From contig WRII01000027.1 in the NCBI GenBank assembly GCA_009782825.1, forward strand, positions 1-37,376: a stretch of 37,376 bases of DNA, in the 5' to 3' direction. Shown piece after piece: positions 8,492 to 37,020 of this stretch. How positions within the stretch are numbered: the stretch's first letter is position 1; each line of letters opens with the position of its first letter. The translations under genes and the position numbers were made by a program. The notes below the pieces were generated by a model. That model made no database searches. It worked only from the letters and a program-made list of their open reading frames with translations, and was not told the DNA's origin. The DNA comes from Peptococcaceae bacterium (GTDB lineage Bacteria > Bacillota > Desulfitobacteriia > Desulfitobacteriales > Syntrophobotulaceae).

Positions 8492-9193
8492 TTGGGGGTT
8501 GGTATTTTGTATTATATTTGGATTATTGCAGCTGTCATTTTTCTTCTGGATCGTATCACCAAGCTCTTGGTCATCTCCAACATTAGTCTCGGTACCAGTT
8601 GGCCTGTCATTCACAATTTCTTTTATCTATCACATGTGCAGAATCAAGGCGCCGCCTTTGGCCTGTTTGCGGGCGGCACCCCTTATTTTATTGTTTTTAC
8701 TCTGGTGGTGGGGTGTGCCGCCGCCTTGCTCCTGCGCAAAATGATATCCCACTTGACGAAACCTATCGCCATCTGTCTCGGCTTGATCATTGGCGGAGCT
8801 CTGGGTAACTTTGTTGACCGGGTGTATTGGGGATATGTTGTGGATTTTCTGAATTTTAATTTATTTCCCTTCGTTTTCAACCTTGCGGACAGCGCTCTGG
8901 TGGTGGGCAGCTTCATGCTTGCGGGATTGATGTTTTTTGGTGAAAATACCAAAGCAAAAAAGTTGGAAATGAAAGGGACTGTGGAAGCCGTGGAAACCGT
9001 GCAAGCCCCGGAAACTGTGGAAGCCGTGGAAACCGTGTCTGTGGACGAAGAAGATGAGTCCGGGAAAACGAGTGCCCCTGCAGGAAGGGAAGATGCGCCC
9101 ACAGACACGGATGATGCAGCTGAAGAAGAAGATGTGTCTCAGGAAGAAGAAGATATCCCTGCGGAAATGGAGGCTAGTGCAGCACTCCATTAG
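8492..9193 (+). CDS. lspA: Lipoprotein signal peptidase II with an acidic, repeat-containing C-terminal extension
   Basis: Four transmembrane segments. Conserved motifs NLGTSWPVIHNFFYLSHVQNQGAAFG and VVDFLNF...FNLAD are present (the catalytic Asp lies in the FNLAD box). It sits in the conserved ileS-lspA-rluD position. The start is probably the TTG at 8492, next to the RBS aggag. The last ~90 aa are a Glu/Asp-rich tail with a VEAVETV x2 repeat. Confidence 0.9.
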   Translation: MGVGILYYIWIIAAVIFLLDRITKLLVISNISLGTSWPVIHNFFYLSHVQNQGAAFGLFAGGTPYFIVFTLVVGCAAALLLRKMISHLTKPIAICLGLIIGGALGNFVDRVYWGYVVDFLNFNLFPFVFNLADSALVVGSFMLAGLMFFGENTKAKKLEMKGTVEAVETVQAPETVEAVETVSVDEEDESGKTSAPAGREDAPTDTDDAAEEEDVSQEEEDIPAEMEASAALH

Positions 9194-17823: not shown

Positions 17824-20789
17824 GTAAAATAATCGACATCCGCACCATCAATCAATGACACAGCCTCATCATACGCGCCGATTAAGACGTTTTGCAAGAT
17901 ATCCTCCACAGTATCTCCCACACGAGGCGTTTGAGTGAATTTTTGCAATTCGCCAACAGCTTTTTTTATCCTGACAGAATCCAAAACATCCAGTGCCACT
18001 TTTAACTCGGAAAGTTCCGCGTGCAGCACGTCTATATCTGGATTCCCTGTCTGATCAAGACCCATATCTTTGGTATGAGTCCTCGCCTGTGTGATCCCTA
18101 TGTTGATCGCATCGAGAAGGGTTTCTAACCCCTTGAAGAACGCATCGCTCCGGGAATGAACAAAATCCACCATTCCTTTTTCAGCTGCGTTCTCCAGCTC
18201 TTGAGCTGCCTCGGCAATCCCTTCGGCTCCGATGTTCCCTGCGGCACTCTTGATTCCATGAGCATATATTCTGTACAACGACAGATTTTCTGCCCTGAGA
18301 CATGCCTTCATTTCCTTGATTGTCTCAAGAGTATCTTTATAAAATGTAGTCAGGATCTTCAAGTAGCTTTGTATCGATCCGCCTGCTATCGCCACGCCCA
18401 CCTTGGTGTTCAGCCCGTCAATATTAATGTTCAGCCCATCAATATTAATATTCAGCCTGTCAACAGGGCAGCTTATGCCGGCGCGGATGTCATCTGGCGT
18501 CCGCTTTATCTGCTTTTCCGGCGGAAGCCATCTTGCCAGCATCATGTCCAGCTTAACAGTATCAATGGGTTTAGACAGAAAATCATTGAATCCATTCTCC
18601 AGAAACATCTTTTTTGTGCCCACAACCGCGTTGGCTGTCAGCGCGATAATCGGCAGGGATGTATAATACGGGTCTTTGCCACCCAGAGCTCTGATTTTTG
18701 CCGTAGCTTCCATGCCGTTCATTGCGGGCATCATATGATCCATGAAGATCAAATCATAACGCTCTCTTTTGAGTATTTCAATAGCCACCTTGCCGCTTTT
18801 GCACACATCCACCTGCATGCCATAAGGCTTGAGCAGCCCTTCGGCAACCTTCAAGTTCGTTTCAATATCGTCAACAATAAGGATTCTCGCCTGAGGCGCG
18901 GTAAAATTCACGACAGGTTCATGAGGGATGACCCTTTCTTCTGAGGCTGATGTCCTCACCGCACCTGAATTGCCTATGCCAAGGCTGGTGTCCTCCGGTC
19001 TGCCGATTAATCCTCCGGCGTGCTGGTATCCTCCGGCTGTGGTATGGGACACTTTGTTTAAGAAGTTGGCTACAGGCAAAGAATAAATGGGGGTGGTCAG
19101 GAGGCTGATATTATGTCCCGCAATGGCCTCCCCAAATTCCGCAATCAGCAAAAACTTGACCCCGGACTTATATCCTTCAGCGCTCTCAAGGTTCGCATAT
19201 TTTTCTTTGACCCTTTCATAGAGAACAGAGGCCAGGAAAACAAAAGAATACTTGCGGCTCATAATTTCGTCATAGAACTCAGCATCCGTGGAAATTGCCT
19301 TATAGGGAACGCCCAGACTTTCCATGGTCTGCACTATGGAGTGTCTGTAGAGTTCACGACGTTCATAAATCAAGACATTCTTTTCCTCCGGGTTTTCCAC
19401 GACCGCCATCTTTTGGTTCGATCTGACCTTCTGTGGCAGCGTCACAGTAAAAGTACTGCCTTCTCCATAGATAGAGTGAACCTCAATCGTTCCCCCCATA
19501 GCGTCAACTAAATTTCGTGTTATGGCCAGCCCCAACCCTGTCCCTTCGATGCCTTTATTGTCTACAAGATCCCCCCGAGTAAATTCATCGAACAGCTTCC
19601 CGATTTCTTCCTCTCTGATGCCTTTACCGCTGTCTTCGACAGTTATGATAAGAATAACTGTATTATCATGATCATCATGATAATCATCATGATCATCATC
19701 ATCATAACCACCATCATCATAACCACCATCATCACTGGGATTTGCCATCTCCTTGAGAATGGATAGGGAAACATATCCTCTTTCCGTATATTTTACGGCA
19801 TTGCTTAACAAATTCATCATGATTTGACGGATTCTTATAGCGTCCCCAAAAAGATCATTAGGAATGTCATTATCGACATTAACCACGAAGCGCAGCCGCG
19901 ACTCCAGGACCCTGGTTTTTATAATATTGACCACATCATTAACCAAAGAGGAGAACAAATAGTCTGCCGGAGCAATTTCCAGGTTGCCTGATTGAATTCT
20001 GGAAAAATCTAAAATATCATTGATGATCGACAATAAGGTAGACCCCGTGTGCTTAATGGTCAGAACATTTTCCTGGACATCCAGCGGAATACTTTTCCTC
20101 AGGGTCAGCTCCGACATGCCGATGATCGCATTCAGAGGGGTGCGCATCTCATGGCTCATTTTCGCTAAAAAAGCGGATTTCGCCTGATCCGCCCCTTTGT
20201 AATAGTGGGCTGCCGCCGCTTGATCCCTCGCCTCAATAATATTGGTCAGATCTCTGAAAATCACAAGGAGTCCGTCATTTTTGTCGCGTTCATATGTAAA
20301 CGGCGCAGCGCTTATCGCATAATGGCGCACCGTTCCCGTATCGCCAAGATCAAGGTTATCTTCAGATTCTTGGATTGCGCCCATGGCAAAAGCTTTCTGG
20401 AAAAGATCCTCCATATGGTCAAGCCACTCTTCGTCAGCAAAAACGGAAAAAATTTGCCTGAAGGGCTTATGGTGCAGAAACTCGGGGCTGGGTATGTTCA
20501 AAAGCGTTAAAAACGATTGGGTGGACAGAAGAAAATGTGCCGCGCTGTCAAGGAGGATAATCATATCCGGCGAATATTCCATGATAACTTGAAGGTGCTT
20601 TTCCTGTTTGGATTTTTCAGCAGTGACGACGGCACTGAGGGTTTCTTGGGCCATCATTATATTTTTATACGTCTCTACCAAATGCTCTGACGCTGCGAGT
20701 TGCCGGGTCAGTCTTCTATTTTCAAGCTCAAGCCGGGTGATTTCTTTAAGCAGGGTTTCCTTTTCCGGCCCCTCAAATTGTTCTGCCAT
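17820..20789 (-). CDS. Hybrid sensor histidine kinase: coiled-coil/PAS, HisKA, HATPase_c, degenerate receiver, receiver, Hpt
   Basis: H-box SHEMRTPLNAIIGM. N-box NLLSNAVKYT. G-box DSGKGI...GTGLGL. REC ILIVDDIETN...DLIFMDHMMPAMNG...IIALTANA. Hpt HGIKSAAGNIGAEG. The start is probably the ATG at 20789 (MAEQFEG; RBS aggag 8 nt upstream). A TTG-extended ORF to 20822 would run into the repeat element. There is an acidic DDGGYDDGGYDDDDHDDYHDDHD insertion between the N-box and G1-box. There is also a NINIDGL x2 repeat. Confidence 0.85.
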   Translation of the reverse strand: MAEQFEGPEKETLLKEITRLELENRRLTRQLAASEHLVETYKNIMMAQETLSAVVTAEKSKQEKHLQVIMEYSPDMIILLDSAAHFLLSTQSFLTLLNIPSPEFLHHKPFRQIFSVFADEEWLDHMEDLFQKAFAMGAIQESEDNLDLGDTGTVRHYAISAAPFTYERDKNDGLLVIFRDLTNIIEARDQAAAAHYYKGADQAKSAFLAKMSHEMRTPLNAIIGMSELTLRKSIPLDVQENVLTIKHTGSTLLSIINDILDFSRIQSGNLEIAPADYLFSSLVNDVVNIIKTRVLESRLRFVVNVDNDIPNDLFGDAIRIRQIMMNLLSNAVKYTERGYVSLSILKEMANPSDDGGYDDGGYDDDDHDDYHDDHDNTVILIITVEDSGKGIREEEIGKLFDEFTRGDLVDNKGIEGTGLGLAITRNLVDAMGGTIEVHSIYGEGSTFTVTLPQKVRSNQKMAVVENPEEKNVLIYERRELYRHSIVQTMESLGVPYKAISTDAEFYDEIMSRKYSFVFLASVLYERVKEKYANLESAEGYKSGVKFLLIAEFGEAIAGHNISLLTTPIYSLPVANFLNKVSHTTAGGYQHAGGLIGRPEDTSLGIGNSGAVRTSASEERVIPHEPVVNFTAPQARILIVDDIETNLKVAEGLLKPYGMQVDVCKSGKVAIEILKRERYDLIFMDHMMPAMNGMEATAKIRALGGKDPYYTSLPIIALTANAVVGTKKMFLENGFNDFLSKPIDTVKLDMMLARWLPPEKQIKRTPDDIRAGISCPVDRLNINIDGLNINIDGLNTKVGVAIAGGSIQSYLKILTTFYKDTLETIKEMKACLRAENLSLYRIYAHGIKSAAGNIGAEGIAEAAQELENAAEKGMVDFVHSRSDAFFKGLETLLDAINIGITQARTHTKDMGLDQTGNPDIDVLHAELSELKVALDVLDSVRIKKAVGELQKFTQTPRVGDTVEDILQNVLIGAYDEAVSLIDGADVDYFT

Positions 20790-23180: not shown

Positions 23181-26042
23181 ATGTCAGGATTATTCCGCAA
23201 ATTTTTCAACTTTTTAAGATCCCTATTCAAAGGTAAAACCCGGTCGGATCATACCGGGCCTGGCGGCACAGACATATCACACACAACAGACACTCTTGAT
23301 AACGCTGACACAGACCGGCTCAGCTCAAGCAGCGGCCCCACACGGATCTACAAGCGTGACGCGCACCCTTTAAGAAAAATATACTTATGGGGCTGGGATC
23401 AAGACAACAATCCCAGCTTTCTCGTGCTGTACGGTGTCCATGAATTTAAAAGCACAGGCCCTCGCGGCAACGTTCTCAAGGAGGATGTGCGCTATACGGA
23501 TTATGCGATTTTTAAAGGCCGGGACGGACATTTTCCTTCCTTTGAGGCTGTGAAAATTATTGAGACACGGGAAAACCGCGCTCATGTCAGGCGCATGTAC
23601 TATAAGAAGGATGTGGAAGGCGTTTGTTATTGGAGCCAGACCAAAAAGGAGACCATGTTAACCTGCTTTAAGACATTAGGCAAGGGCTCCCCAGTCTCTT
23701 TCCCATACTTCCAGCAGATGACTCATGAAGCTTATGTCCATAGCCTGGAAAAACTCCCTGTAACATTTGATAAGTTCAGGCTCGCGAGAACCCCCAGCGA
23801 CGTTCTGCAGCCGGAACCTGGGCTGGCCCCCTATACGGAAACCCTCTGTACTCTTTTGAGCCACCCCAATCTCTATATCCGAAAAAAACATCTGCGTGAC
23901 CTTCTTCTGTCGAACCCGCCAAGAGAATTGTACACGTTCCTGATCCGAGTTGGAAGCAATGAGCTGATTTCCGGCCTGTTCTTGGAACTCAGCCGGCTGA
24001 GAAATGATGTCTTGGTCAGTGAAGCGAAAGCGATGCTGCAGGAGGAAATCACATGGGTCAGCGGCAGGTATTTGGAAGGTCTGAAGAGATGTGCCGCTCT
24101 CTATGTTACTGTTTTTGACAAAGACGCCCGTGAGGCCAGGACAGCTTATCTGCGGCAGACCCTGCTCAAGGGGCCGATAGCCAAGAGTTCGTTATGCGAA
24201 GGTTCAATAAATGAGAATATCAATGGTGTCAACATGATCTCCGCCGACATGATTAATACCGTGAAAGCTATCCTGCAAGAAGCGGAGATCTACGGCTTGG
24301 CTGATGTGATCGGGAAGACCGCTTACGAGTTGGATGCTCCTGAGCTGACGCACCTTTTCAAGAACAGCGGCAAAAGCAAGGCCCTCATATATTTGAGACG
24401 GTACGCCCGGCGCATTATGGATGCTTATGCTGTTCATGATGAAGCGAGGTTCGTGGCAGCTATGAAGACACTTTTTATAAGCTACACTGTTAAGGATTAT
24501 CTGAGCAAATTTCCCGGGAATTTTCAAGACAATTATTTTATCAGACACTACTTATATGCCTTTCAGCGTGAGATCTGGGCGCGGCATGTGGATGACCTCA
24601 TTGAGATTCTAGCCGAAGCAAAGGTTCCTGTTGTGGCCAAAGCCTTCTACTCTCTGCTGAAAGAGTGTGTGAACACGGAATATCTGACGCAGGAAGTCCC
24701 TTACGAAAAACTCTTGCGGCTCATTGGCTCTCCCTATTCAGGTGCGGCGGATATGTTTATGCAAATCTTAGCCCGGAAGCTGGCAGGGGAAGAGCAGTTC
24801 GACAGCACCCTTATGCTTCAATTCTTCCACGGCTCCCATCTGAACACTGATCAGGTTCGGGCGAAAATTCATGACATGGCCATGGCCTATTTTGACCGAA
24901 CCGGAGGCAGGCTTTCTCCTCAAGGGGTGATGACCTTGATGTTTGTCCCCGACAGGGATGAATGGCTCGACATGCACCGTCAAAACCTGGAAGCTTTTGA
25001 TCGTGACGAGTATGTGGCGTTTTTGCATGCGTTGATCCGGCATGTGGCCACAGCCACTTCTCCCGGACGGGGAGGGCGGACCGCTGCCGCCACTTTTGGC
25101 TTGGGCATGACAGAGAATCACCAACAGATACTGATTCAGTCTTTAGGCAAGCTGGCGCCGGTTTCCCGGCCGCAAATGACCGGCTTAATATCCGCGGTCA
25201 CAGACCTCTTACGCCGGAGCAAAAAACTGCCGGATACTCTATATCCCTTCTTGGAAGCCCTTGTTTTAGCCGGGCCAATGACTCAGCCATTGGATAAACT
25301 GAGGAATCTTCTGCCGTCCGTAGATATTTGGGGGAATCAGCACACCCAAAATGTTCAAGGCAGGAACCTCTTCCTCCTTTCTCTCCTGCACGCCGTCAAA
25401 ACAGACACCCTTCCTTCCGACACCACTCTGTCGGACATGCTGGAACTCGATTCGGCCCCTATGATGAACACCTTGATTCAAGTCATCGCCTTCCGGCAGG
25501 CTCTGCTCAGTTCAAGATTTTCTACAGTACTGATCCTTCTGGAGTCCGATATCCCTCCCGTGCAGGGGATTGCTCAAGACGTTTTCAACACCCTGCCCCC
25601 AAGAGAGCAAAAACAGCTCCACGCCCTCATCCTCGATTCCCCTGACCAGAAGGTCTCTGAGTATGGCCTGCACAAATTGCGCGACCTTTATGAACAGCCC
25701 GGAGCCCTGATCCCGGAGGATCTCCTCCTAAGACTGCTCGAACACCCCTCTCGTAACGTCAAATCCTATATTGCCGGCAAATTAACGGACATTATCAAAA
25801 CCTTGGGCAACGGCAGCACAGAAGTGTTCATGTACTATGCCAGAACCCTTCTCCTGCTCCCCAACCGGATCTCCCAAGCCAAAAACACCCTCTATGACGT
25901 TTTTCCCGCCTTTGTCAAAGCCCATCCGGACCGCCAATCCGAAGTAGAATCTCTGCTGCTGGATATTGGCGGCTCCAACATTATCTTAGATGCCGAACGG
26001 GCGTTGATGGCCCTGGCCAAAATCAGAAGGGAGGTCGCTTAG
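23181..26042 (+). CDS. Large (953 aa) predominantly alpha-helical (HEAT/ARM-like repeat) protein of unknown function. First gene of the RT-associated operon
   Basis: RBS gggaggcagg then ATG. The N-terminal ~180 aa are a mixed region (KIYLWGWDQDNNPSFLVLYGVHEF...). The rest is long Leu-rich helical repeats. I can read no catalytic motif. Its stop TAG overlaps the next gene's ATG (gcTTAGATGc). Confidence 0.6.
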   Translation: MSGLFRKFFNFLRSLFKGKTRSDHTGPGGTDISHTTDTLDNADTDRLSSSSGPTRIYKRDAHPLRKIYLWGWDQDNNPSFLVLYGVHEFKSTGPRGNVLKEDVRYTDYAIFKGRDGHFPSFEAVKIIETRENRAHVRRMYYKKDVEGVCYWSQTKKETMLTCFKTLGKGSPVSFPYFQQMTHEAYVHSLEKLPVTFDKFRLARTPSDVLQPEPGLAPYTETLCTLLSHPNLYIRKKHLRDLLLSNPPRELYTFLIRVGSNELISGLFLELSRLRNDVLVSEAKAMLQEEITWVSGRYLEGLKRCAALYVTVFDKDAREARTAYLRQTLLKGPIAKSSLCEGSINENINGVNMISADMINTVKAILQEAEIYGLADVIGKTAYELDAPELTHLFKNSGKSKALIYLRRYARRIMDAYAVHDEARFVAAMKTLFISYTVKDYLSKFPGNFQDNYFIRHYLYAFQREIWARHVDDLIEILAEAKVPVVAKAFYSLLKECVNTEYLTQEVPYEKLLRLIGSPYSGAADMFMQILARKLAGEEQFDSTLMLQFFHGSHLNTDQVRAKIHDMAMAYFDRTGGRLSPQGVMTLMFVPDRDEWLDMHRQNLEAFDRDEYVAFLHALIRHVATATSPGRGGRTAAATFGLGMTENHQQILIQSLGKLAPVSRPQMTGLISAVTDLLRRSKKLPDTLYPFLEALVLAGPMTQPLDKLRNLLPSVDIWGNQHTQNVQGRNLFLLSLLHAVKTDTLPSDTTLSDMLELDSAPMMNTLIQVIAFRQALLSSRFSTVLILLESDIPPVQGIAQDVFNTLPPREQKQLHALILDSPDQKVSEYGLHKLRDLYEQPGALIPEDLLLRLLEHPSRNVKSYIAGKLTDIIKTLGNGSTEVFMYYARTLLLLPNRISQAKNTLYDVFPAFVKAHPDRQSEVESLLLDIGGSNIILDAERALMALAKIRREVA

Positions 26043-27821
26043 ATGCAAGTTACTTATCAATACGCCGGTCCCTCCAAGCTTGTGCGGCATCCCGATCATG
26101 TTACTTTCGGCATGAGCCCGGATCTGTCGCGAGAAGAAAAGGTCTCCTTTGTGGGGAAGTTGAAAAATCCCCTCATCTTTCGGGACGCCATGCTCATGCT
26201 CAGAAAAATTATTGTGTCGGATGCCCGGCAGAAAAAAAAGGAACGCACAGAATTTTTCCAATGGCTGAACGGGGAAATTGAGAGACGCATACAAGAACAC
26301 GAACAGGATCTGCCCGGCGTCAGAGACGCCCTGCAGCAGGAGATCGAAGCTTTGCTCCAGGACATGGCCGGCAAAGACACGGCTCTGGCCCAGCTTGTCA
26401 AAACTCGCAAAAAGATTAGCCAAGAGATAGAAAAGTCCGACGCCTGGCGCGACTATCATAAGCTGGAAAAAAAGTTTTGGCAGTTTATCCGCGACCGGGA
26501 CAGAGACTTATGGTTCGTCCTTGATCCTGTGATCACGGTGCATCCGGATCAAGTTTCCTTTGAAGCCTTCTCTCTGGATGAATCCATATACGGCTGTCTG
26601 TCTATAGGCATGGATGAATTTGATCTGCGCGCCGAACCCAAGCTGGGTACGACCAACATTGACTTTTCCGCCAAACTCGCTCAGGAAATGGAACGGTTTC
26701 GCACCTACTCAGATGTGGAACTCTCTGTGAACCCGGAAGGATTCACCGTAGATACAGGCATCCTTCCCGACTATATCGAAAAGAAAATTGACCTGCCTGA
26801 TACATGGATCAAAGGCTTCACCCAAGTTTCGTCAGCGGCCAATCTAAGCGGCGCAGAGATCTCTTTGACTCCGGTGGATATGTATGACATCTGTTCCTTT
26901 TTGCGGCGGCATAAGGCCCAAAAGAGCCCCAGGCATATGACATGGATTCTGAAAAAAGACCACCCTGTAACAGTACGCTTTGAGCCCTTTGGTCACGAAC
27001 TCACGTTACAGGCGATTTACCACGGCGACAAGGACAGGGAAGAAAAAATATGGGGCCGGCAGCGCTGGCTTGTGGCTGAGAAGCTTCTCCCTCTGGCCAA
27101 GTCCTTTACTGTCAAGCTATTGGGGTTTGGTATGCCTCAGTTTATCATCGCAGATTTAGGAAATATGAACATGACCATCGGCTTTTCTTCCTGGTCCGCC
27201 AACGACTGGGTTAAAGGAACAGCTTTTAACATTATGAGCGGCTTCATCGGAGAAGGGAACTACAGAGAAGTTTATGCCCTGCTCAAACAAAAACGCTCCA
27301 TGACGGTAAACGACATCTGCAGCCAGATCCAATCCCGCACACGAAACACAACCCTTTCCGGTATCGGCAGCCTGCTCAAGCGGGGAGAAGGGTACTTTGA
27401 CGCTGTCAATACCCAGGTACGCTTCCGCCAGCTGTGCAATACCCCCATCCCGCAGGAACTGTACGCCACAACGGAAGCGGAACTCCGAGTGACAAGGTGT
27501 TTGGATGCCGGGATGGATCTTTTCCGTATGAGGCTGTCAGAAAAGAATGAGTATGTTTTTACGAATTCCTATTTGGACAGAGATCCGCTGCGAACACAGC
27601 ACAAGGCACAGCATGAGACAGAAATCATGATTGATGAAGACGGTCAGATTGGTCGTGTGGTATGCTCATGCAAAGAATTCAAAAGAGGGCCGCGCAATAT
27701 CTCCGCACCATGCCCCCATATTTTAGCCCTATACATCACCGCCGCGAAATTCACCCGGCTCAGGCTGGAGCAGGGGAGAGTGTATGGGATCAATGATATT
27801 ATGGAGGTGGTGCTATCATGA
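26043..27821 (+). CDS. 592-aa protein with a C-terminal SWIM-type zinc finger. Second gene of the RT-associated operon
   Basis: RBS gggagg. The C-terminal VVCSCKEFKRGPRNISAPCPHILALY gives the CxC...CxH SWIM pattern. Its stop overlaps the RT start (ATGA). Confidence 0.65.
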   Translation: MQVTYQYAGPSKLVRHPDHVTFGMSPDLSREEKVSFVGKLKNPLIFRDAMLMLRKIIVSDARQKKKERTEFFQWLNGEIERRIQEHEQDLPGVRDALQQEIEALLQDMAGKDTALAQLVKTRKKISQEIEKSDAWRDYHKLEKKFWQFIRDRDRDLWFVLDPVITVHPDQVSFEAFSLDESIYGCLSIGMDEFDLRAEPKLGTTNIDFSAKLAQEMERFRTYSDVELSVNPEGFTVDTGILPDYIEKKIDLPDTWIKGFTQVSSAANLSGAEISLTPVDMYDICSFLRRHKAQKSPRHMTWILKKDHPVTVRFEPFGHELTLQAIYHGDKDREEKIWGRQRWLVAEKLLPLAKSFTVKLLGFGMPQFIIADLGNMNMTIGFSSWSANDWVKGTAFNIMSGFIGEGNYREVYALLKQKRSMTVNDICSQIQSRTRNTTLSGIGSLLKRGEGYFDAVNTQVRFRQLCNTPIPQELYATTEAELRVTRCLDAGMDLFRMRLSEKNEYVFTNSYLDRDPLRTQHKAQHETEIMIDEDGQIGRVVCSCKEFKRGPRNISAPCPHILALYITAAKFTRLRLEQGRVYGINDIMEVVLS

Positions 27822-29386
27822 GACAAGAACACTATCGAGCTGTCCATGATATGGGAAAAAAAGAATATACCCTGCTCAAAATGCAGGAATACGGCTTTTG
27901 GCCGGAAGATCTGCCGACGCCCTATGAAAGGCAAGCGCACGAATCCGCGCAAGACTACAACAAGAGACAAGCCCTCTTCAAGGAATATGAGCAGATCGCT
28001 GGTCGGATAGCCAATTTGTATAGTGAGAAAGACGAGATCAATACCCGGTTAAAAGACTTACGGAAACACTATGATCAGACATGGGATTATGAAAAGATAA
28101 GGAAAGACGTCGCCCAAACCATCCTGCGGGAATCCCTGGCCCGGCGCGCGGAAAGAAAACGACAGAAAGAACTTCAGAAGCAAAGGATCTCTGAAGCCTG
28201 GCAAAAACGCAAGGCCGAAAGTATTGTTTTCATTGGCCGGGGCTATTCGGGGCTGCTCTCTGATAAGACCGGCGACGCGGACAAACTGCGCGCCTCCAAT
28301 CTGCCCCTCATCCCTGACGATAAAGCCCTAGCCGCTCTTCTTGGCCTTACGTATACAGAGCTGCGTTTTTTGGCCTATCACAGAGATGTGGTTGTGGCCG
28401 ATCATTACCACCGGTACGAGATTCCTAAAAAGAATGGCGGACACAGACGTATTGCCGCGCCAAAGCCGCTGCTCAAAAAGACCCAAAGAAAGATCTTGGA
28501 ACTCATATTGGAGAAAATAGATATCTCGGAACAGGCTCACGGGTTCGTGAAAGGGCGATCTGTAGTCACCGGCGCTCAAGCTCATAAAACTCATATCGGA
28601 AATCCTTCGCTGCTGATCACTCTCGACCTGGAAGATTTCTTTCCCACCATTACTTTTGAGCGCGTCCGAGGCCTTTTTAAATCTTTTGGCTATTCAGGGT
28701 ATATTGCCTCACTTTTGGCTATGATATGCACCTATTGCGAACGCGTGCCCATTGAAGTCAAAGGTCAGATCAAATATGTACGATCCTCTGAGAGAATCCT
28801 CCCGCAAGGATCCCCGGCCAGCCCCATGATTACAAATATCATCTGCCGCAGGATGGACGCCAAGATCAGAGACCTCGCCACGAACTTCCCGTCCGGCCAC
28901 CCTGTCCAGTCCGGTCACCCTGCCCAGTCCGGTCACCCTGTCCAATCCGGTCACCCTGCCCAAACAAATTCCCCTGCGAGCTGCCGGTGTACATATACAC
29001 GGTACGCCGATGATATGAGCTTTAGCTTTGACAGCACCTTGCCCATAGACGCGGAACACATCAAAAAATTCATCCACCAAATTCAGCGCATCGTCCACAG
29101 CGAAGGTTTTAAAATTAATAAACAGAAAACACGCTATCTAAAACACAACAACAGACAAGCCGTCACTGGCATTGTCATTAATAATGAAGAGATCTCTGTT
29201 CCCAAGGTATGGCTCAAAAAGATGAGAGCGGCCCTCTATAATGCCAAAAAGCAAAAAGAACAGGGGACTCTTGATCCCGGCAAAATACATGAGATAGCCG
29301 GCATGGCCTGCTGGTTGAACTCCGTGAATCCCACCAAGTACAAAAAAATGATTGATGAAGCCAAGGATTTGCAAAGCTCGTCTTAG
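27818..29386 (+). CDS. Reverse transcriptase of retron/retron-like type with a ~190-aa basic coiled-coil N-terminal extension
   Basis: RT motifs are in order: IPKKNGGHRRIAAP (1/2), GFVKGRSVVTGAQAH (retron-type NAxxH-like box), LDLEDFFPTI (A), LPQGSPASPMITN (B'), YTRYADDMSF (C), and NRQAVTGIVINNEE plus LKKMRAALYNAK (the retron-specific RxVTG(L/I)xVN thumb motif). A 4x SGHP(V/A)Q repeat insertion sits between motifs B' and C. The RBS ggaggtgg is present. Confidence 0.85.
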   Translation: MRQEHYRAVHDMGKKEYTLLKMQEYGFWPEDLPTPYERQAHESAQDYNKRQALFKEYEQIAGRIANLYSEKDEINTRLKDLRKHYDQTWDYEKIRKDVAQTILRESLARRAERKRQKELQKQRISEAWQKRKAESIVFIGRGYSGLLSDKTGDADKLRASNLPLIPDDKALAALLGLTYTELRFLAYHRDVVVADHYHRYEIPKKNGGHRRIAAPKPLLKKTQRKILELILEKIDISEQAHGFVKGRSVVTGAQAHKTHIGNPSLLITLDLEDFFPTITFERVRGLFKSFGYSGYIASLLAMICTYCERVPIEVKGQIKYVRSSERILPQGSPASPMITNIICRRMDAKIRDLATNFPSGHPVQSGHPAQSGHPVQSGHPAQTNSPASCRCTYTRYADDMSFSFDSTLPIDAEHIKKFIHQIQRIVHSEGFKINKQKTRYLKHNNRQAVTGIVINNEEISVPKVWLKKMRAALYNAKKQKEQGTLDPGKIHEIAGMACWLNSVNPTKYKKMIDEAKDLQSSS

Positions 29387-29401
29387 AATGTTAAAATTAG
29401 G

Positions 29402-29600
29402 GCATAGGTTTTTTGGCAGGTATGCTATGGTGTTGCGCCATAGTTGAGGAATGTTATGTATACATCACCAAATTGTGCGCAATTCGCTTCGCATCGACTA
29501 ATGGCGCCTTAAAATCTATCCTACGGTGTAGGCGCCATTAGTCGAGCTCCGCTGAAGTGTCACAATTAGATGAGAGATCTTTTAGCAAAAAACCTATGAG
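29402..29600 (+). ncRNA. Candidate retron msr/msd-like non-coding RNA downstream of the RT. The a1-like arm is 29403-29416 and the a2-like arm 29585-29598. The central 15-bp perfect hairpin is 29494-29508 / 29531-29545
   Basis: cataggttttttgg pairs with gcaaaaaacctatg (12 contiguous bp plus 2). Between the arms, tcgactaatggcgcc-N22-ggcgccattagtcga forms a perfect 15-bp stem. A further hairpin is ctatggtgttgcgccatag. No ORF spans the region. Confidence 0.35.
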
Positions 29601-29760
29601 ATAGGGGCTGTTGCCAGCCTCTTCAATCATTGATGAAGGTCTGAGGATATGATGGAAAAATTGAGAGATCTGCCCTTTCAGGTCATTGTCACGGATCAAC
29701 AGAAAGCAGACATTGAGGATGACTCTGAAGATGGAGAAGAGGTTAATTTGGAGGGGTTTG

Positions 29761-30198
29761 ATGTGGAAATATGAAGCAGTCAATGAATACAATACAATCA
29801 GCTTGCATGATTGCTATATAATGCATATTGATGAGCAAGATGGCAATATTATATTCAGCTTTGAACGTGGATTTTGGATTATTGAAACCAACAACAAAAA
29901 CCCTTTTCACAAGACTTTAAGAACTGAGGATGGGGCTAAACTCACACTCACAAATGCTAATTGTGTTGAAATTCTTTTCGAAGATAAAAATATCAGTTGG
30001 CATGAGTTTTGTCGAAGAATTAATGCTGACGAATGGAAATTTGAGTGTATTCATGATAATTATACAGCAAATCAATGCGCCTACGAAGGTTGGATTTACT
30101 TTGACAAAGAACCTTATCATATGGAGTTAGGCCTAAAGTTTACTTTTGGTGACGCAATATACCATTGGAATGAAATCTGTGAGAATAGGCCGTGGTAG
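29761..30198 (+). CDS. Hypothetical 145-aa Cys/His/Trp-rich protein in an AT-rich tail
   Basis: Strong RBS tggagggg 4-6 nt before the ATG at 29761. The annotated ORF from 29686 has earlier ATGs without an RBS. Local GC is much lower than in surrounding genes. No recognisable motif. Confidence 0.4.
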   Translation: MWKYEAVNEYNTISLHDCYIMHIDEQDGNIIFSFERGFWIIETNNKNPFHKTLRTEDGAKLTLTNANCVEILFEDKNISWHEFCRRINADEWKFECIHDNYTANQCAYEGWIYFDKEPYHMELGLKFTFGDAIYHWNEICENRPW

Positions 30199-30632: not shown

Positions 30633-31742
30633 TCATTCCCCATATCCCATCAGTCCTCGGACAGACACCTCACTTGCATTTAACGCCAAAGTCTCTCCTG
30701 TGGGAAGCTGCACAATCAATTCTCCGGCAGGGTTGAGGGCAACAGCTCGTCCGCAAATCTCTTTATTGTGGTAAATCGCCTTGATCTCCCGGCCCAAAGT
30801 TACACAGTTGTCTTGGTAAAGAGGAAGAATATCCGTGACAAATTTATGCCGTATAAGGAGATCATACAGAGGTTCAAAACAATTGAGAATAGCAGCAGCC
30901 AAGGAAGTAAGTTGAAAAGTTTCAATTTGTTGAGATTTTTCAACCCGTGAATACGCTCTTTTTGTCTCTAGGAACAAAGAAGTCGCTGAATCCGCCAATT
31001 CCGGCGGAAATGAAGAAATATGCACATTGACGCCGATACCCACCACCAACGCTTTAATATGTTCAACCTCAGCTGTCAGCTCTGTGAGAATTCCCGCAGC
31101 CTTCTTATTATTGAGAAGAATATCATTCGGCCATTTAATGACGGGTTGCAAAGCGGTATTGTGCAATGTGCGTTGCAGGTGATACTCTTCATCCGTTCCT
31201 TTGTACATTGCTTGCTGCATGGTCTGCTGCATCACCTGCTGCATCTCCTGCTGCATGGCCTGCTGCACGGCCAATCCGGCAGCCAAGGTCACTTGGGCCG
31301 CATTATTGATAGGAATCTCAGGACGCAGCAGGAGAGACATCATAAGACATGTATGCCGTGGAGCATACCAGGCACGACCCAGACGGCCCCGTCCCGCTGT
31401 CTGTTCCTGAGCGGCAAACACAGCTCCATGGACGGCCCCGTTTTCCGCCGCATGCAAAGCCTGCCGGTTGGTGGATTCGACACTTTCATAAAGAGTCAGG
31501 CTGCGGCCCAAATATTCAGTGGTCAACAGAGATTGCAGATCATCAGCCTGCAAAATATCCGGGCTGGCCGTGAGACGATAGCCCCGGTTTGTCACAGCTT
31601 CAATTGTATAACCATCCTCTTGCAAAGCCTTGATTGTTTTCCAGACAGCAGAGCGAGTCACCTCCAGGACACGGCTGATGTCCGCCCCAGAGATAAAACT
31701 GTCCGGTTTTTGGCGCAAAAGAAAGAGCACATCATCTTTCAT
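30633..31742 (-). CDS. birA: Bifunctional biotin--[acetyl-CoA-carboxylase] ligase / biotin operon repressor
   Basis: N-terminal wHTH (ISGADISRVLEVTRSAVWKTIKALQ). The ligase core has the biotin-binding motif QTAGRGRLGRAW and KWPNDILLNNKKAAGIL. C-terminal SH3-like domain. An in-frame MQQ(x)MQQ pentad repeat insertion (QQAMQQEMQQVMQQTMQQAM) is encoded by 12-bp repeats at ~31195-31262. Confidence 0.9.
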   Translation of the reverse strand: MKDDVLFLLRQKPDSFISGADISRVLEVTRSAVWKTIKALQEDGYTIEAVTNRGYRLTASPDILQADDLQSLLTTEYLGRSLTLYESVESTNRQALHAAENGAVHGAVFAAQEQTAGRGRLGRAWYAPRHTCLMMSLLLRPEIPINNAAQVTLAAGLAVQQAMQQEMQQVMQQTMQQAMYKGTDEEYHLQRTLHNTALQPVIKWPNDILLNNKKAAGILTELTAEVEHIKALVVGIGVNVHISSFPPELADSATSLFLETKRAYSRVEKSQQIETFQLTSLAAAILNCFEPLYDLLIRHKFVTDILPLYQDNCVTLGREIKAIYHNKEICGRAVALNPAGELIVQLPTGETLALNASEVSVRGLMGYGE

Positions 31743-31747
31743 ACACT

Positions 31748-32248
31748 CTATTTTTCCCTCTCAAAAACCGCGAAAGATTCTCCTATCATCCCTATCGTAT
31801 CTCCCTGGTAGTTCAACGCTCCTTCGGTGATTACAAAGGCAAACTGTTCAACTTCATCACCCAAAAATCCATAAAAATCTCTGGAACTCACCTTGCATTC
31901 TATTTTATCCCCATTACGGCTGTATGTCCCGTTGATATTGCCCATTCCTTCATAGAGATTTACAACCAACTCAAATGTCATATCTTCTTTCAAGATCAAT
32001 ACATTATAGTGTTCCAGTTTTGCAGAGTCGTTTTCCCTGAAAATCCATCTTCCAGTAACATCCTTGACGGTATCATTGTCCTGATTGTTCTGATTGTTCT
32101 GATCAGTATTATTCTGTTGGGAATTCGTCCGATCCGTATTATTGTTTTGTTCTAAAATAGTATTTGTAGTACATCCCGCCATAAAGAATACCGCCATAAC
32201 AACCACAGCCACAAACATCACGATCCATTTAACTTGACTTTTGTTCAT
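31748..32248 (-). CDS. Hypothetical lipoprotein with an Asn/Gln-rich linker, co-transcribed upstream of birA
   Basis: Signal peptide with lipobox-like FMAGC. Low-complexity NNTDRTNSQQNNTDQNNQNNQDN linker. The RBS aaggaagg is present. Its stop lies 5 nt before the birA start. Confidence 0.55.
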   Translation of the reverse strand: MNKSQVKWIVMFVAVVVMAVFFMAGCTTNTILEQNNNTDRTNSQQNNTDQNNQNNQDNDTVKDVTGRWIFRENDSAKLEHYNVLILKEDMTFELVVNLYEGMGNINGTYSRNGDKIECKVSSRDFYGFLGDEVEQFAFVITEGALNYQGDTIGMIGESFAVFEREK

Positions 32249-35637: not shown

Positions 35638-37020
35638 ATGGAAAAACTATTTGGAACTGACGGTGTCCGCGGTATAGCCAATAGAGATCTGACACCGGAG
35701 CTGGCTTTTCGCCTTGGGCAGGCCGCTGCCTACCATCTGGGAAAACAGAGGACTTCGGACACCCCCCCCAAGGCAGAGACGAAAGGAAAATTTATTATCG
35801 GACGGGATACACGGATATCCGGCAGCATGCTGGAAGCCGCGCTGGCGGCGGGCATTTGCTCCATGGGCGTCGATGTGTATACCGCGGGAATTCTCCCGAC
35901 ACCGGCGGTGGCTTTTTTGACCAAAAAACTTGAAGCCTGTGCGGGGGTGGTCATCTCGGCATCCCACAATCCGGCTCCGGATAACGGCATCAAATTTTTT
36001 AGTCTGTCAGGATATAAATTTCCTGACGAGGTGGAACAAGAGATCGAAGCCCAGGTTCACCGGGATCTGGAAGGCGAAAGACCTGTGGGAGACCGTGTGG
36101 GGCGCATTATCCCTATGCCCCAAGCCGGAGAGGAATATATGGCCTTTCTGAAAGGCCTGGCGCCTTCTTTGGAGGGGCTCAACGTTGTGGTGGACTGCGC
36201 GAATGGCGCCGCGGGAGCTATCGCGCCCCGTCTTTTTAAGGCTCTGGGAGCGGCGAGTGTGATTCCGGTTTATGACAGTGTTGATGGCATGAGCATCAAT
36301 GTGATGTGCGGATCTACGCATCCTGAACGGATGTCGCAAAAAGTGGCGGCGTGTCACGCGGATTTGGGGCTGGCTTTTGACGGCGACGCCGATCGAGTTA
36401 TTGCTGTGGATGAGAATGGCTGTATCGTTGACGGAGACGCCATTATGCTTGTCTGCGCCCTCCACTTGAAGGAACGTCAGCTTTTGAGACACAATAAGAT
36501 TGTGCTGACAGTGATGAGTAATTTGGGACTGCGCCGGGCTTTGGCTGACCACGGCATTGATATCGAAGAAACGGCCGTGGGGGACCGCTATGTTTTGGAG
36601 CGGCTGCAGGCCACGGATACGGTGTTGGGCGGGGAACAGTCCGGACATATTATTTTTGCGCAGCATGCCACGACTGGGGACGGGATTTTATCAGCGTTGA
36701 AGCTGATGGAGGTCATGAAGGACACAGGAAAGAAGCTGTCGGAGTTGACAGCGCCTTTTCAGCGCTATCCTCAAGTGCTTCAAAATACCCGGGTCAAAGA
36801 TAAGGAGGCTGTTCTTCAGAGTTCTGAGCTTCGCACTGTTATTGCCCAAGTGGAGGACCGCTTGGGGGACAATGGCAGAATTTTGGTTCGTCCTTCGGGC
36901 ACAGAGCCGCTGATTCGCGTTATGCTGGAGGGTCCTGAGAAGGAAGAGCTGGAAGCTATCGCTCAGGAAGTGATTGATGTGATTGATGGGGTTGATGGGG
37001 TTGATGGGGTTGGGGAATAA
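35638..37020 (+). CDS. glmM: Phosphoglucosamine mutase
   Basis: MEKLFGTDGVRGIAN. The active-site motif GVVISASHNPAPDNGIKFF has the phospho-serine. GEQSGHIIF is present. It carries an 18-aa insertion (GKQRTSDTPPKAETKGKF). The C-terminal tail repeat VIDVIDGVDGVDGVGE is encoded by gttgatgggg x3. Confidence 0.92.
   Translation: MEKLFGTDGVRGIANRDLTPELAFRLGQAAAYHLGKQRTSDTPPKAETKGKFIIGRDTRISGSMLEAALAAGICSMGVDVYTAGILPTPAVAFLTKKLEACAGVVISASHNPAPDNGIKFFSLSGYKFPDEVEQEIEAQVHRDLEGERPVGDRVGRIIPMPQAGEEYMAFLKGLAPSLEGLNVVVDCANGAAGAIAPRLFKALGAASVIPVYDSVDGMSINVMCGSTHPERMSQKVAACHADLGLAFDGDADRVIAVDENGCIVDGDAIMLVCALHLKERQLLRHNKIVLTVMSNLGLRRALADHGIDIEETAVGDRYVLERLQATDTVLGGEQSGHIIFAQHATTGDGILSALKLMEVMKDTGKKLSELTAPFQRYPQVLQNTRVKDKEAVLQSSELRTVIAQVEDRLGDNGRILVRPSGTEPLIRVMLEGPEKEELEAIAQEVIDVIDGVDGVDGVGE

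What the first reader, a model, noticed from the sequence alone, without database searches (positions are those of the whole stretch)
27818..29386. RT carries a ~190-aa basic coiled-coil N-terminal extension and a 4x SGHP(V/A)Q minisatellite insertion between palm motifs B' and C
Residues 1-~190 precede the first RT motif. They are K/R/E-rich (RRAERKRQKELQKQRISEAWQKRKAE) and may be an extra nucleic-acid-binding or oligomerisation module not seen in classic retron RTs. Between QGSPASP (motif B') and YTRYADD (motif C) sits SGHPVQSGHPAQSGHPVQSGHPAQ. It is encoded by four near-identical 18-bp units (28886-28960), in a loop where retron RTs normally have only ~20 residues. A length-variable repeat at the edge of the active site could modulate activity or be a recent slippage insertion.
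Basis: seen in the sequence. Interest (0 to 1): 0.55.

Follow-up and report, generated by a model that had tools for sequence, protein, structure and literature searches.

The report
Type XIII retron RT with repeat insertion
This gene is the reverse transcriptase of a known kind of bacterial retron (type XIII, the Mx162 kind): its long N-terminal arm is a known hallmark of that family, and its only unusual feature is a private 32-residue repeat-derived loop that looks like a tolerated slippage insertion.

Summary
ORF 27818-29386 encodes a 522-aa RT with four 18-bp units (28892-28963) coding SGHP(V/A)Q between motif B' and YADD.

It is the RT of a complete type XIII retron: a HEAT/WGR gene, a SWIM/DEDE gene, the RT, and a structured msr-msd ncRNA at 29398-29603.

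The N-terminal extension is not new. It aligns over residues 2-191 in relatives from several phyla. Simon et al. 2019 already describe an extended N-terminus for Mx162, Mx65, Sa163 and Ne144. Only about 150 aa is extra relative to Ec86.

The repeat is private to this lineage. The motif B'-to-C spacing is 24 aa in 113 of 117 protein homologues, in all 80 genomic loci and in Ec86, but 56 aa here. The nearest relative is only 63% identical and lacks the insert.

AlphaFold2 models the insert as a low-confidence coil between two confidently modelled elements. The RT keeps 107 of 110 family-invariant residues. All recovered contigs are clonal, so copy-number variation could not be tested. At least seven other in-frame coding repeats lie in the window, one inside BirA.

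The best reading is a tolerated slippage insertion in a surface loop. Interest is low.

A by-product is more interesting: some related loci carry tandem arrays of retron ncRNAs with hypervariable msd stems.

The parts
23181..26042 (+). First gene of the operon: a 953-aa accessory protein of the type XIII WGR/HEAT-ARM class.
   Evidence: PADLOC WGR_XIII E 5.3e-16 and HEAT-ARM_XIII E 0.0084. Homologues sit at the same position upstream of SWIM and RT in 46 related loci. No Pfam, NCBIfam or PDB sequence match.
26043..27821 (+). Second gene: a 592-aa SWIM zinc-finger protein with a DEDE motif, the putative type XIII effector (cluster 114_1).
   Evidence: PADLOC SWIM_XIII E 4.2e-174 over residues 1-567. 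Pfam SWIM 532-566, below the curated cut-off. DEDE-type motif at 161-246 and CxCx13CxH at 541-559, as described by Mestre 2020. Its start follows the previous gene's stop directly, and its end overlaps the RT start by 4 nt. Found next to the RT in 71 of 80 related loci.
27818..29386 (+). Retron reverse transcriptase, 522 aa, type XIII (clade 10).
   Evidence: PADLOC RT_XIII E 5.4e-151. Pfam RVT_1 E 6e-24. Best PDB sequence match is Ec86 RT, E 5e-28. Best fold match is Ec86 RT 7v9x_A, E 4e-20, TM 0.66. Motifs found: DLEDFF 270, QGSPASP 330, YADD 396, GAQAH 252 (region X), VTG 449 (region Y).
27818..28267 (+). Type XIII-specific N-terminal extension (about residues 1-150). It has short helices 2-40 carrying the invariant GFWP and PYE motifs. 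A long helical hairpin follows (residues 44-85 and 91-134; the basic helix is 105-134).
   Evidence: Other retron RT models and Ec86 start aligning only at residues 154-167. Invariant residues lie throughout the region. Residues 1-195 alone hit distant relatives with E 1e-8 to 1e-21. AF2 helices have pLDDT about 67-91. No Pfam match and no PDB fold match.
28889..28984 (+). Lineage-specific 32-aa insertion (residues 358-389, PSGHPVQSGHPAQSGHPVQSGHPAQTNSPASC) in the connector between the motif B' helix and the motif C strand.
   Evidence: It appears as a gap in all 42 aligned homologues. Spacing is 56 aa against 24 aa. Ec86 has 4 residues where the query has 36. AF2 pLDDT is below 50 for residues 363-386, modelled as coil. 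GC is 67% against 49% for the gene.
28892..28963 (+). Four in-frame 18-bp tandem units encoding SGHP(V/A)Q (residues 359-382). The units differ at 1-3 positions (ggc/ggt, gtc/gcc, cag/caa).
   Evidence: TRF, pattern scan and direct reading of the sequence.
29369..29397 (+). Promoter-like element (TTGCAA, 17-nt spacer, TG-extended TAAAAT) ending 5 nt before the ncRNA's a1 arm. Consensus match only.
29398..29603 (+). Retron ncRNA (msr-msd). The a1/a2 closing stem is 29403-29415 with 29586-29598. The candidate branching G is 29416. The msr hairpin is 29424-29444. The long msd stem-loop is 29471-29567, with a perfect 16-bp distal stem at 29494-29509 and 29530-29545.
   Evidence: Fold -77.4 kcal/mol, z -5.8. 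Inverted repeats. Homologous element downstream of the RT in related loci. 26 of 50 pairs carry compensatory changes, 95% of cells are paired, 0 of 500 shuffles reach this, and slid controls give 2-5. Covariance model match of 206.5 bits, full length. No Rfam family matches.

Best explanation
The ORF is the reverse transcriptase of a complete, apparently intact type XIII retron. The operon is a HEAT/WGR protein, a SWIM/DEDE protein and the RT, followed by the msr-msd ncRNA with its own promoter-like site.

By analogy with characterised retrons, the RT should bind the ncRNA through the a1/a2 stem. It should prime from the 2'-OH of the G after a1 (candidate G29416) and copy the msd part into msDNA. 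The RT-msDNA complex would then hold the SWIM/DEDE and HEAT/WGR partners in check until a trigger arrives. All these steps are inferred, and none is shown for type XIII.

The N-terminal extension of about 150 aa is an ancient, conserved module of this RT clade. It consists of a helical hairpin with a basic face and invariant GFWP, PYE, TWD and GxGYS motifs. It most likely serves as the clade-specific docking surface for the long msDNA stem and/or the co-evolving HEAT/WGR partner. That role is inferred.

The SGHP(V/A)Q repeat is a private 32-aa in-frame insertion. It arose by replication slippage or unequal recombination of a GC-rich 18-bp unit. It lies in the connector between the motif B' helix and the motif C strand, and it is predicted to be a disordered surface loop at the end of that strand far from the catalytic aspartates. 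It is tolerated rather than purpose-built, in a genome that accumulates such in-frame coding minisatellites.
For: System identity:
- PADLOC gives RT_XIII 5e-151, SWIM_XIII 4e-174 and WGR_XIII 5e-16.
- Gene order is conserved in 46 related loci, and the SWIM gene is present in 71 of 80.
- The SWIM protein has the DEDE and SWIM motifs, matching Mestre 2020.
- The ncRNA has an a1/a2 stem, strong covariation and a 206-bit covariance-model match.

N-terminal extension as a family trait:
- All 120 listed homologues cover 97-100% of the query.
- Invariant residues run through residues 13-144.
- Relatives from other phyla match residues 2-191.
- The literature describes it.
- Co-evolution of the RT with the HEAT partner is reported.

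Insert is private and tolerated:
- Spacing is 24 aa in 113 of 117 homologues, in 80 of 80 loci and in Ec86, against 56 aa here.
- The nearest relative, at 63% identity, lacks it.
- Residues 363-386 are coil with pLDDT below 50, flanked by elements with pLDDT about 90.
- The RT keeps 107 of 110 columns invariant in the other 42 sequences. It loses 9 of 198 columns conserved at 90% or more, within the family range of 0-18.
- The partner genes and the ncRNA are intact.
- The units have diverged by 1-3 substitutions, including synonymous ones, while the frame stays open.

Genome-wide habit: in-frame repeats occur in at least seven other places in six other ORFs of the window. One is a roughly 30-aa insertion carrying an (MQQx)5 repeat inside BirA, seen by comparison with S. 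aureus BirA.
Against: The 24-aa spacing is strictly conserved across phyla, which suggests that length matters there. A 32-aa insert could therefore impair the enzyme.

AlphaFold2 cannot show functional damage, and low pLDDT is expected for any sequence absent from the alignment.

No within-species diversity was available. Neither neutrality nor stability of the copy number could be tested.

No type XIII retron has a solved structure or a demonstrated mechanism. The roles given to the N-terminal arm and to the partner proteins are therefore analogies.

The 3D position of the loop relative to the active site is inferred from secondary structure and canonical RT topology, not measured on coordinates.
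Confidence: 0.72

Rival explanations
1. The repeat is a selected functional module. It could be a flexible Pro/Gly/His-rich surface loop that tunes RT activity, msDNA termination or contact with the HEAT/SWIM partners. It could also let the RT escape a phage inhibitor, with copy number acting as an in-frame tuning knob.
For: The insertion persists in an otherwise well-conserved, intact RT and system. The units have diverged, so it is not brand new. It breaks an otherwise invariant length. Four His residues plus a CxC just downstream could bind metal, which is speculation from the sequence alone.
Against: It occurs in a single lineage only. No second allele was found among 745 homologues or in the clustered protein collection. 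It is predicted to be disordered. Similar in-frame repeats occur in unrelated housekeeping genes nearby, such as BirA and GlmM, which points to a mutational habit rather than selection on the RT.
Confidence: 0.13
2. The insertion is a damaging lesion. The RT, and with it the retron, is inactive or decaying, and the open frame is retained only because the repeat unit is a multiple of three.
For: The strict 24-aa spacing in about 195 relatives and in Ec86 implies a constraint that is violated here. The insert ends 6 residues before the YADD strand.
Against: There are no frameshifts or stops in any of the three genes. 107 of 110 invariant residues are kept, and the three changes are conservative. 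All catalytic and retron-specific motifs are present. The ncRNA is full length at 206 bits. Other family members tolerate 30-60-aa insertions in other loops.
Confidence: 0.13
3. The repeat is an assembly or sequencing artefact.
For: Tandem repeats can be mis-assembled.
Against: The sequence is identical on 6 contigs in at least 5 samples held by three sources (ENA, Logan, JGI). From general knowledge, a 72-bp array is shorter than typical short reads.
Confidence: 0.01

Closest known systems
Type XIII retrons (RT clade 10), including Retron-Mxa1 (Mx162), Mxa2 (Mx65), Sau1 (Sa163) and Nex2 (Ne144); Mestre et al. 2020, Simon et al. 2019
   Same: The RT matches the RT_XIII model end to end, including the extended N-terminus. 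The SWIM/DEDE protein and the HEAT/WGR protein are adjacent, and there is a long structured ncRNA.
   Different: This is the Bacillota subgroup, at 32-36% identity to Gram-negative members. The ncRNA lies downstream of the RT with its own promoter-like site, not upstream. It carries a private 32-aa repeat-derived loop before motif C, which no other member has.
Retron Ec86 RT (PDB 7v9u, 7v9x)
   Same: It is the best sequence and fold match among solved structures. It shares the motifs, the YADD box and the 24-aa motif B'-to-C spacing seen across the type XIII family.
   Different: Ec86 lacks the first ~145 residues of the query. It also lacks an 18-aa beta-hairpin between the ICTYC segment and motif B' (query about 308-326), which is a family trait. 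It has 4 residues where the query has 36. Its effector is of a different type.
In-frame coding minisatellites (slippage-derived loop insertions)
   Same: It is a short GC-rich unit whose length is a multiple of 3, repeated head to tail inside an ORF and coding a low-complexity loop. Several other examples lie in the same window.
   Different: No variation in copy number has been observed for this one. It lies in an enzyme core connector of otherwise invariant length, rather than in a surface protein or linker.

Membership tests
Retron reverse transcriptase | RT palm and fingers motifs with a YADD catalytic box | tested here: met
   Pfam RVT_1 E 6e-24. DLEDFF 270, QGSPASP 330 and YADD 396 are present. 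The best PDB sequence and fold matches are retron RTs.
Retron reverse transcriptase | Retron-specific regions X (NAxxH) and Y (VTG). The regions are named in Simon 2019; the motif strings are from my own knowledge. | tested here: met
   GAQAH at 252-256, where G replaces N as in the family consensus GAxxH. VTG at 449-451.
Retron reverse transcriptase | Adjacent ncRNA with a1/a2 inverted repeats closing an msr-msd fold and a G next to a1 | tested here: met
   A perfect 13-nt a1/a2 pair at 29403-29415 and 29586-29598, with an invariant G at 29416. Covariation in all four helices.
Retron reverse transcriptase | Production of branched msDNA with a 2'-5' linkage | not testable with these tools
   This needs expression and nucleic-acid analysis.
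Type XIII retron system (Mestre 2020) | The RT belongs to clade 10 (RT_XIII) | tested here: met
   PADLOC RT_XIII scores 501.8 bits (E 5e-151), against 255.9 bits for the next model.
Type XIII retron system (Mestre 2020) | Linked protein with a DEDE motif and a C-terminal SWIM zinc finger (cluster 114_1) | tested here: met
   SWIM_XIII E 4e-174. Dx7Dx4E...D...E at 161-246. CxCx13CxH at 541-559, where the paper gives x12.
Type XIII retron system (Mestre 2020) | Preceding HEAT/ARM-repeat protein, with a WGR-like domain in cluster 216 | tested here: met
   WGR_XIII E 5e-16, partial, residues 463-566. HEAT-ARM_XIII E 0.008. A full-length homologue sits at the same position in 46 loci at 26-41% identity. 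The domain composition itself was not verified by structure.
Type XIII retron system (Mestre 2020) | Type XIII (Firmicutes) ncRNA structure | tested here: inconclusive
   A conserved structured ncRNA accompanies the RT in 51 loci. I could not compare it with the authors' covariance model, and Rfam has no such family.
Type XIII retron system (Mestre 2020) | Extended N-terminus of the RT (Simon 2019) | tested here: met
Anti-phage defence system | Protection against phage, with effector toxicity released on a trigger | not testable with these tools
   No experimental report on type XIII was found. Mestre 2020 notes vertical inheritance and possible domestication.
Contingency (copy-number-variable) locus | Different repeat numbers among cells or strains | tested here: inconclusive
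   Only the 4-copy allele is known. All 6 contigs are 99.98-100% identical over 4-19 kb, so they are one clone. No near-identical variant protein exists in the collection. Two metagenome scans found nothing.

The most novel reading that the evidence does not exclude
The SGHP(V/A)Q array is a selected, length-tunable surface loop on a retron RT. In-frame gain or loss of units would alter how the RT-msDNA complex engages its HEAT/WGR and SWIM partners or a phage-encoded inhibitor. That would make it a contingency-type tuning element inside a retron enzyme.
Probability: 0.06. Interest if true: 0.5.

Novelty: new member of a known kind. Interest (0 to 1): 0.2.

Why it matters
For the finding itself, it matters little. 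It shows that the connector before motif C of a retron RT, which has an invariant length in about 195 relatives, carries a 32-residue low-complexity insertion in an otherwise intact gene. If the RT is active, this marks a candidate permissive site for engineering tags or fusions into retron RTs used in genome editing.

The N-terminal arm is a known but functionally unexplained hallmark of the Mx162 clade. Its strong conservation across phyla (GFWP, PYE, TWD and GxGYS motifs plus a basic helical hairpin) gives concrete residues to mutate.

The by-product could matter more. Some related loci hold tandem arrays of retron ncRNAs with identical scaffolds and hypervariable msd stems. If confirmed, one RT would serve many msDNAs.

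Tried and rejected
- Rfam scan of the whole window at gathering thresholds found nothing.
- Two metagenome DNA scans aimed at other alleles, one with the upstream flank and one with a repeat dimer, found nothing.
- An identity look-up of the protein returned only clonal contigs, so it could not inform on copy-number variation.
- Pfam on the N-terminal 192 aa at E up to 10 gave only chance-level coiled-coil hits.
- NCBIfam has no type XIII model, and the RT falls below the cut-offs of the other retron models.
- A separate AF2 model of residues 1-195 had pTM 0.29, and Foldseek against the PDB gave nothing with E below 1. The fold of the extension therefore stays unassigned.
- PDB sequence searches with the SWIM and HEAT/WGR proteins found nothing.
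- Literature searches for a type XIII mechanism or structure found nothing beyond Mestre 2020, Simon 2019 and a 2026 survey.
- A search for natural retron ncRNA arrays found only engineered 'multitrons'. One preprint could not be opened.

Considered and rejected:
- DGR-like diversification. I saw nothing resembling a template/variable repeat pair in the parts of the locus I read, but I ran no dedicated search for one.
- Frame-shifting phase variation. The unit is 18 bp, so the frame is always kept.
- A dispersed repeat or mobile element as the source. The unit occurs nowhere else in the window.
- A protein on the opposite strand. The 129-aa ORF 28709..29098 (-) merely mirrors the repeat.
Full report

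Yes. ORF 27818..29386 (+) encodes 522 aa. Pfam finds RVT_1 at residues 202-447.

Tandem Repeats Finder reports an 18-bp unit x4.2 at 28887-28962 and a 36-bp unit x2. The four in-frame units are at 28892-28963. A degenerate pattern for the unit matches four times against 0.10 expected, and none of 100 shuffles reached four. The units read tcc ggc cac cct gtc cag / tcc ggt cac cct gcc cag / tcc ggt cac cct gtc caa / tcc ggt cac cct gcc caa. They encode SGHPVQ-SGHPAQ-SGHPVQ-SGHPAQ at residues 359-382, between QGSPASP (330-336) and YADD (396-399).

The identical sequence lies on six contigs in at least five samples, from ENA, Logan and JGI. It is therefore not an assembly artefact.

**2. What is the gene?**

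PADLOC assigns the three consecutive, translationally coupled genes to the type XIII retron:
- 23181-26042 matches WGR_XIII (5e-16) and weakly HEAT-ARM_XIII.
- 26043-27821 matches SWIM_XIII (4e-174).
- 27818-29386 matches RT_XIII (5e-151, twice the score of any other retron RT model).

The SWIM protein carries the DEDE-type motif at 161-246 and CxCx13CxH at 541-559. These are the features Mestre et al. 2020 describe for cluster 114_1. That paper places Mx162, Mx65, Sa163 and Ne144, the classic myxobacterial retrons, in this type.

The order HEAT/WGR, SWIM, RT recurs in 46 related loci. A SWIM gene is next to the RT in 71 of 80 loci.

Among solved structures the best matches are retron RTs. Ec86 leads, with sequence E 5e-28 and Foldseek E 4e-20 at TM 0.66. 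No type XIII component has a solved relative for its N-terminal arm or its partner proteins.

**3. The ncRNA**

Rfam finds nothing in the window. Directly 3' of the RT, however, lies a textbook retron ncRNA on the + strand:
- a perfect 13-nt a1/a2 inverted repeat at 29403-29415 and 29586-29598, with a G at 29416;
- a short hairpin at 29424-29444;
- a long stem-loop at 29471-29567, with a perfect 16-bp distal stem.

The fold energy is -77.4 kcal/mol, z -5.8.

The same element follows the RT in related Clostridia loci, with the same spacing of about 171 nt between a1 and a2. On eight sequences, 95% of cells pair. Twenty-six of 50 pairs show changes on both sides, against 11.2 +/- 2.1 in shuffles (0 of 500 reach 26) and 2-5 in slid controls.

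A covariance model built from these sequences finds 60 copies in 51 sources. The window copy scores 206.5 bits at full length. A promoter-like site (TTGCAA, 17-nt spacer, TG-extended TAAAAT) ends 5 nt before a1. This is a consensus match only. The locus is therefore a complete retron.

**4. The N-terminal extension**

It is a family trait, not a novelty.
- All 120 listed homologues, at 48-63% identity, cover 97-100% of the query and are about 485-500 aa long.
- The alignment shows invariant residues throughout the region: G13, K21-P29 with GFWP, P35-Y36-E37, T88-W89-D90, R109-R110 and G140/G142-Y143-S144.
- Relatives at 32-36% identity from Bacteroidota, Planctomycetota and Proteobacteria match query residues 2-520.
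- Residues 1-195 alone hit those relatives over 2-191, with E from 1e-8 to 1e-21.
- Simon et al. 2019 state that the RTs of Mx162, Mx65, Sa163 and Ne144 have an extended N-terminal region of unknown function.

Other retron RT models and Ec86 begin to align at residues 154-167. The clade-specific part is therefore about 150 aa rather than 190.

AlphaFold2 (43-sequence alignment, mean pLDDT 80.9) gives short helices at 2-40 and two long helices at 44-85 and 91-134. I read the two long helices as a hairpin. Residues 105-134 hold 11 K/R against 5 D/E. Neither Pfam nor Foldseek on a separate model of residues 1-195 (pTM 0.29; no hit with E below 1) assigns the fold.

Mestre 2020 reports that the RT co-evolves with the HEAT/WGR partner. 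My inference is that the arm docks that partner and/or the long msDNA stem. This has not been tested.

**5. The repeat insertion**

The distance from the end of QGSPASP to the Y of YTRYADD is 24 aa in 113 of 117 scorable protein homologues. It is 27 aa in two others and 56 aa only here. It is 24 aa in all 80 genomic loci across phyla and 24 aa in Ec86 (ungapped alignment). Ec86 has 4 residues where the query has 36.

The insert is therefore 32 aa, residues 358-389, nt 28889-28984. It consists of P, the four units, then TNSPASC, which may be a degenerate fifth unit. In the multiple alignment it is a gap in all 42 other sequences.

The nearest relative is only 63% identical, and no near-identical variant exists in the protein collection. 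The age of the insert is therefore bounded only loosely. The units differ by 1-3 substitutions, two of them synonymous sites, so the array is not brand new. Its GC content is 68%, against 49% for the gene.

**6. Consequences for the protein**

In the model the insert (363-386) is coil with pLDDT below 50. The flanking helix 344-356 and strand 391-396 have pLDDT about 90.

In the canonical right-hand RT fold, the motif B helix leads away from the dNTP site and the motif C strand leads back to the catalytic aspartates at the hairpin tip. The helix-to-strand connector therefore lies at the far end of the strand. That would put it roughly 20 Å from the aspartates. This is my estimate from the element lengths, not a measurement on coordinates, which I could not access.

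The RT retains 107 of the 110 columns that are invariant in the other 42 sequences. The three changes (Y5H, F17Y, M103L) are conservative. It loses 9 of 198 columns conserved at 90% or more, within the family range of 0-18. All catalytic and retron-specific motifs are present, and the partner genes and ncRNA are intact. This argues against decay but cannot prove activity.

**7. Variability**

I could not test this beyond the databases. The contigs that carry the protein are 99.98-100% identical over 4-19 kb, so they represent one clone. Two metagenome DNA scans found nothing. 'Length-variable' remains unsupported.

**8. Genomic habit**

The window holds many in-frame coding repeats:

| Repeat | Coordinates |
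|---|---|
| VADK x4 | 4591-4638 |
| VEAVET x3 | 8981-9037 |
| LNINIDG x2.7 | 18407-18463 |
| HxxAGG x2 | 19010-19045 |
| D/G/Y/H-rich tract | 19665-19734 |
| (MQQx)5 | 31213-31272 |
| NNQ x3 | 32075-32103 |
| VDG x4 | 36972-37012 |

The MQQ repeat lies in a roughly 30-aa insertion within BirA. The query jumps from residue 167 to 200 where S. aureus BirA goes from 170 to 174. The RT repeat is thus one instance of a general mutational tendency of this organism. That favours a neutral or nearly neutral origin.

Other family members carry long insertions in other loops. P0103, P0110 and P0114 have them between region X and motif A, apparently with repeated INKDxI units. P0096 has one after motif C.

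**9. Verdict**

This is a new member of a known kind, a Bacillota type XIII retron. The 'extra' N-terminal module is the known hallmark of the clade. The only peculiarity is a private, repeat-derived, probably tolerated loop insertion. Rival readings, a functional tuning loop or an inactivating lesion, remain possible at about 0.13 each. The interest of the finding as posed is low.

**10. By-product**

The covariance-model search showed three arrangements:
- In Clostridium-like loci the ncRNA follows the RT.
- In Lachnospiraceae-like loci it lies about 5 kb upstream on the opposite strand.
- In several loci it forms tandem arrays of 2-7 full-length copies: L018 with 7, L041 with 6, L029 with 4-5, L022 and L055 with 3.

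Within an array, the a1/a2 arms, the msr hairpin and the proximal scaffold are nearly identical. The distal msd stem differs completely in each copy yet stays self-complementary.

I found no description of natural retron ncRNA arrays in two literature searches. Only engineered multitrons turned up. The window itself has a single copy.

Noticed in passing
Related loci, not the window: L018:1-1315 (-), L041:51-1196 (-), L029:344-1318 (-), L022:487-1152 (-), L055:7500-8250 (+), L050:7541-7996 (+), L051:1426-1888 (+), L027:856-1289 (-): These loci hold tandem arrays of 2-7 full-length type XIII retron ncRNAs per locus. Copies share nearly identical a1/a2 arms, msr hairpin and scaffold. The distal msd stem is completely different in each copy yet remains self-complementary. 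This would mean several msDNAs for one RT. Two literature searches found only engineered arrays.
   Followed up: partly
window 29398-29603 (+): The retron msr-msd ncRNA lies directly downstream of the RT. It has a perfect 13-nt a1/a2 stem, an invariant G at 29416 and strong covariation. Rfam has no match for it.
   Followed up: yes
window 29369-29397 (+): A promoter-like site with a TG-extended -10 overlaps the 3' end of the RT gene and ends 5 nt before the ncRNA. It suggests the ncRNA is transcribed on its own.
   Followed up: no
window 31213-31272 (- strand ORF 30633..31742, BirA): A 12-bp x5 in-frame repeat encodes (MQQx)5. It lies in a roughly 30-aa insertion in the biotin ligase/repressor relative to S. 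aureus BirA, where the query jumps from residue 167 to 200 and 6apw goes from 170 to 174.
   Followed up: partly
window 4591-4638, 8981-9037, 18407-18463, 19010-19045, 19665-19734, 32075-32103, 36972-37012: Further in-frame coding tandem repeats occur in unrelated ORFs: VADK x4, VEAVET x3, LNINIDG x2.7, HxxAGG x2, a D/G/Y/H-rich tract in the hybrid histidine kinase, NNQ x3, and VDG x4 at the GlmM C-terminus. The genome seems prone to coding minisatellites.
   Followed up: partly
window 28739-28795 (RT residues about 308-326): An 18-aa beta-hairpin (ERVPIEVKGQIKYVRSSER; strands 309-314 and 317-322) lies between the ICTYC segment and motif B'. It is conserved across the type XIII family but absent from Ec86 RT.
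   Followed up: partly
Homologues P0030, P0050, P0058, P0071 (RT+TerD, PF02342), P0066 (RT+BRCT, PF00533), P0120 (819 aa): Some type XIII RTs are fused to TerD or BRCT domains. P0120 carries extra sequence ahead of the RT N-terminus that reads like the end of a HEAT/WGR-type partner (compare the string with the translation). I did not test this.
   Followed up: no
L011, L028, L043, L055; protein P0101: Type XIII retron loci at 52-64% identity to clostridial ones sit on contigs binned as Asgard archaea (Hermod-, Prometh-, Thor- and Lokiarchaeota MAGs). L028 and L043 carry HEAT/WGR, SWIM and the ncRNA; in L011 only SWIM and the ncRNA were detected. In L055 the RT match stops at residue 312. This could be horizontal transfer or binning contamination.
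   Followed up: no
Homologues P0103, P0110, P0114 (between region X and motif A) and P0096 (after motif C): Other family members carry 20-60-aa insertions in other surface loops. The one in P0103 seems to hold repeated INKDxI units. Loop insertions thus recur in this RT clade, but at different sites.
   Followed up: no
L056-L085 (Gram-negative type XIII loci): In many loci a gap of about 360-420 nt separates the SWIM gene from the RT; in others the gap is larger or SWIM lies downstream. The short gaps fit the classic placement of msr-msd upstream of the RT. The Bacillota covariance model does not detect an ncRNA there.
   Followed up: no
window 29686-30198 (+): A small ORF of 145-170 aa lies just after the ncRNA. 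No Pfam family is on record for it, and its function is unknown.
   Followed up: no
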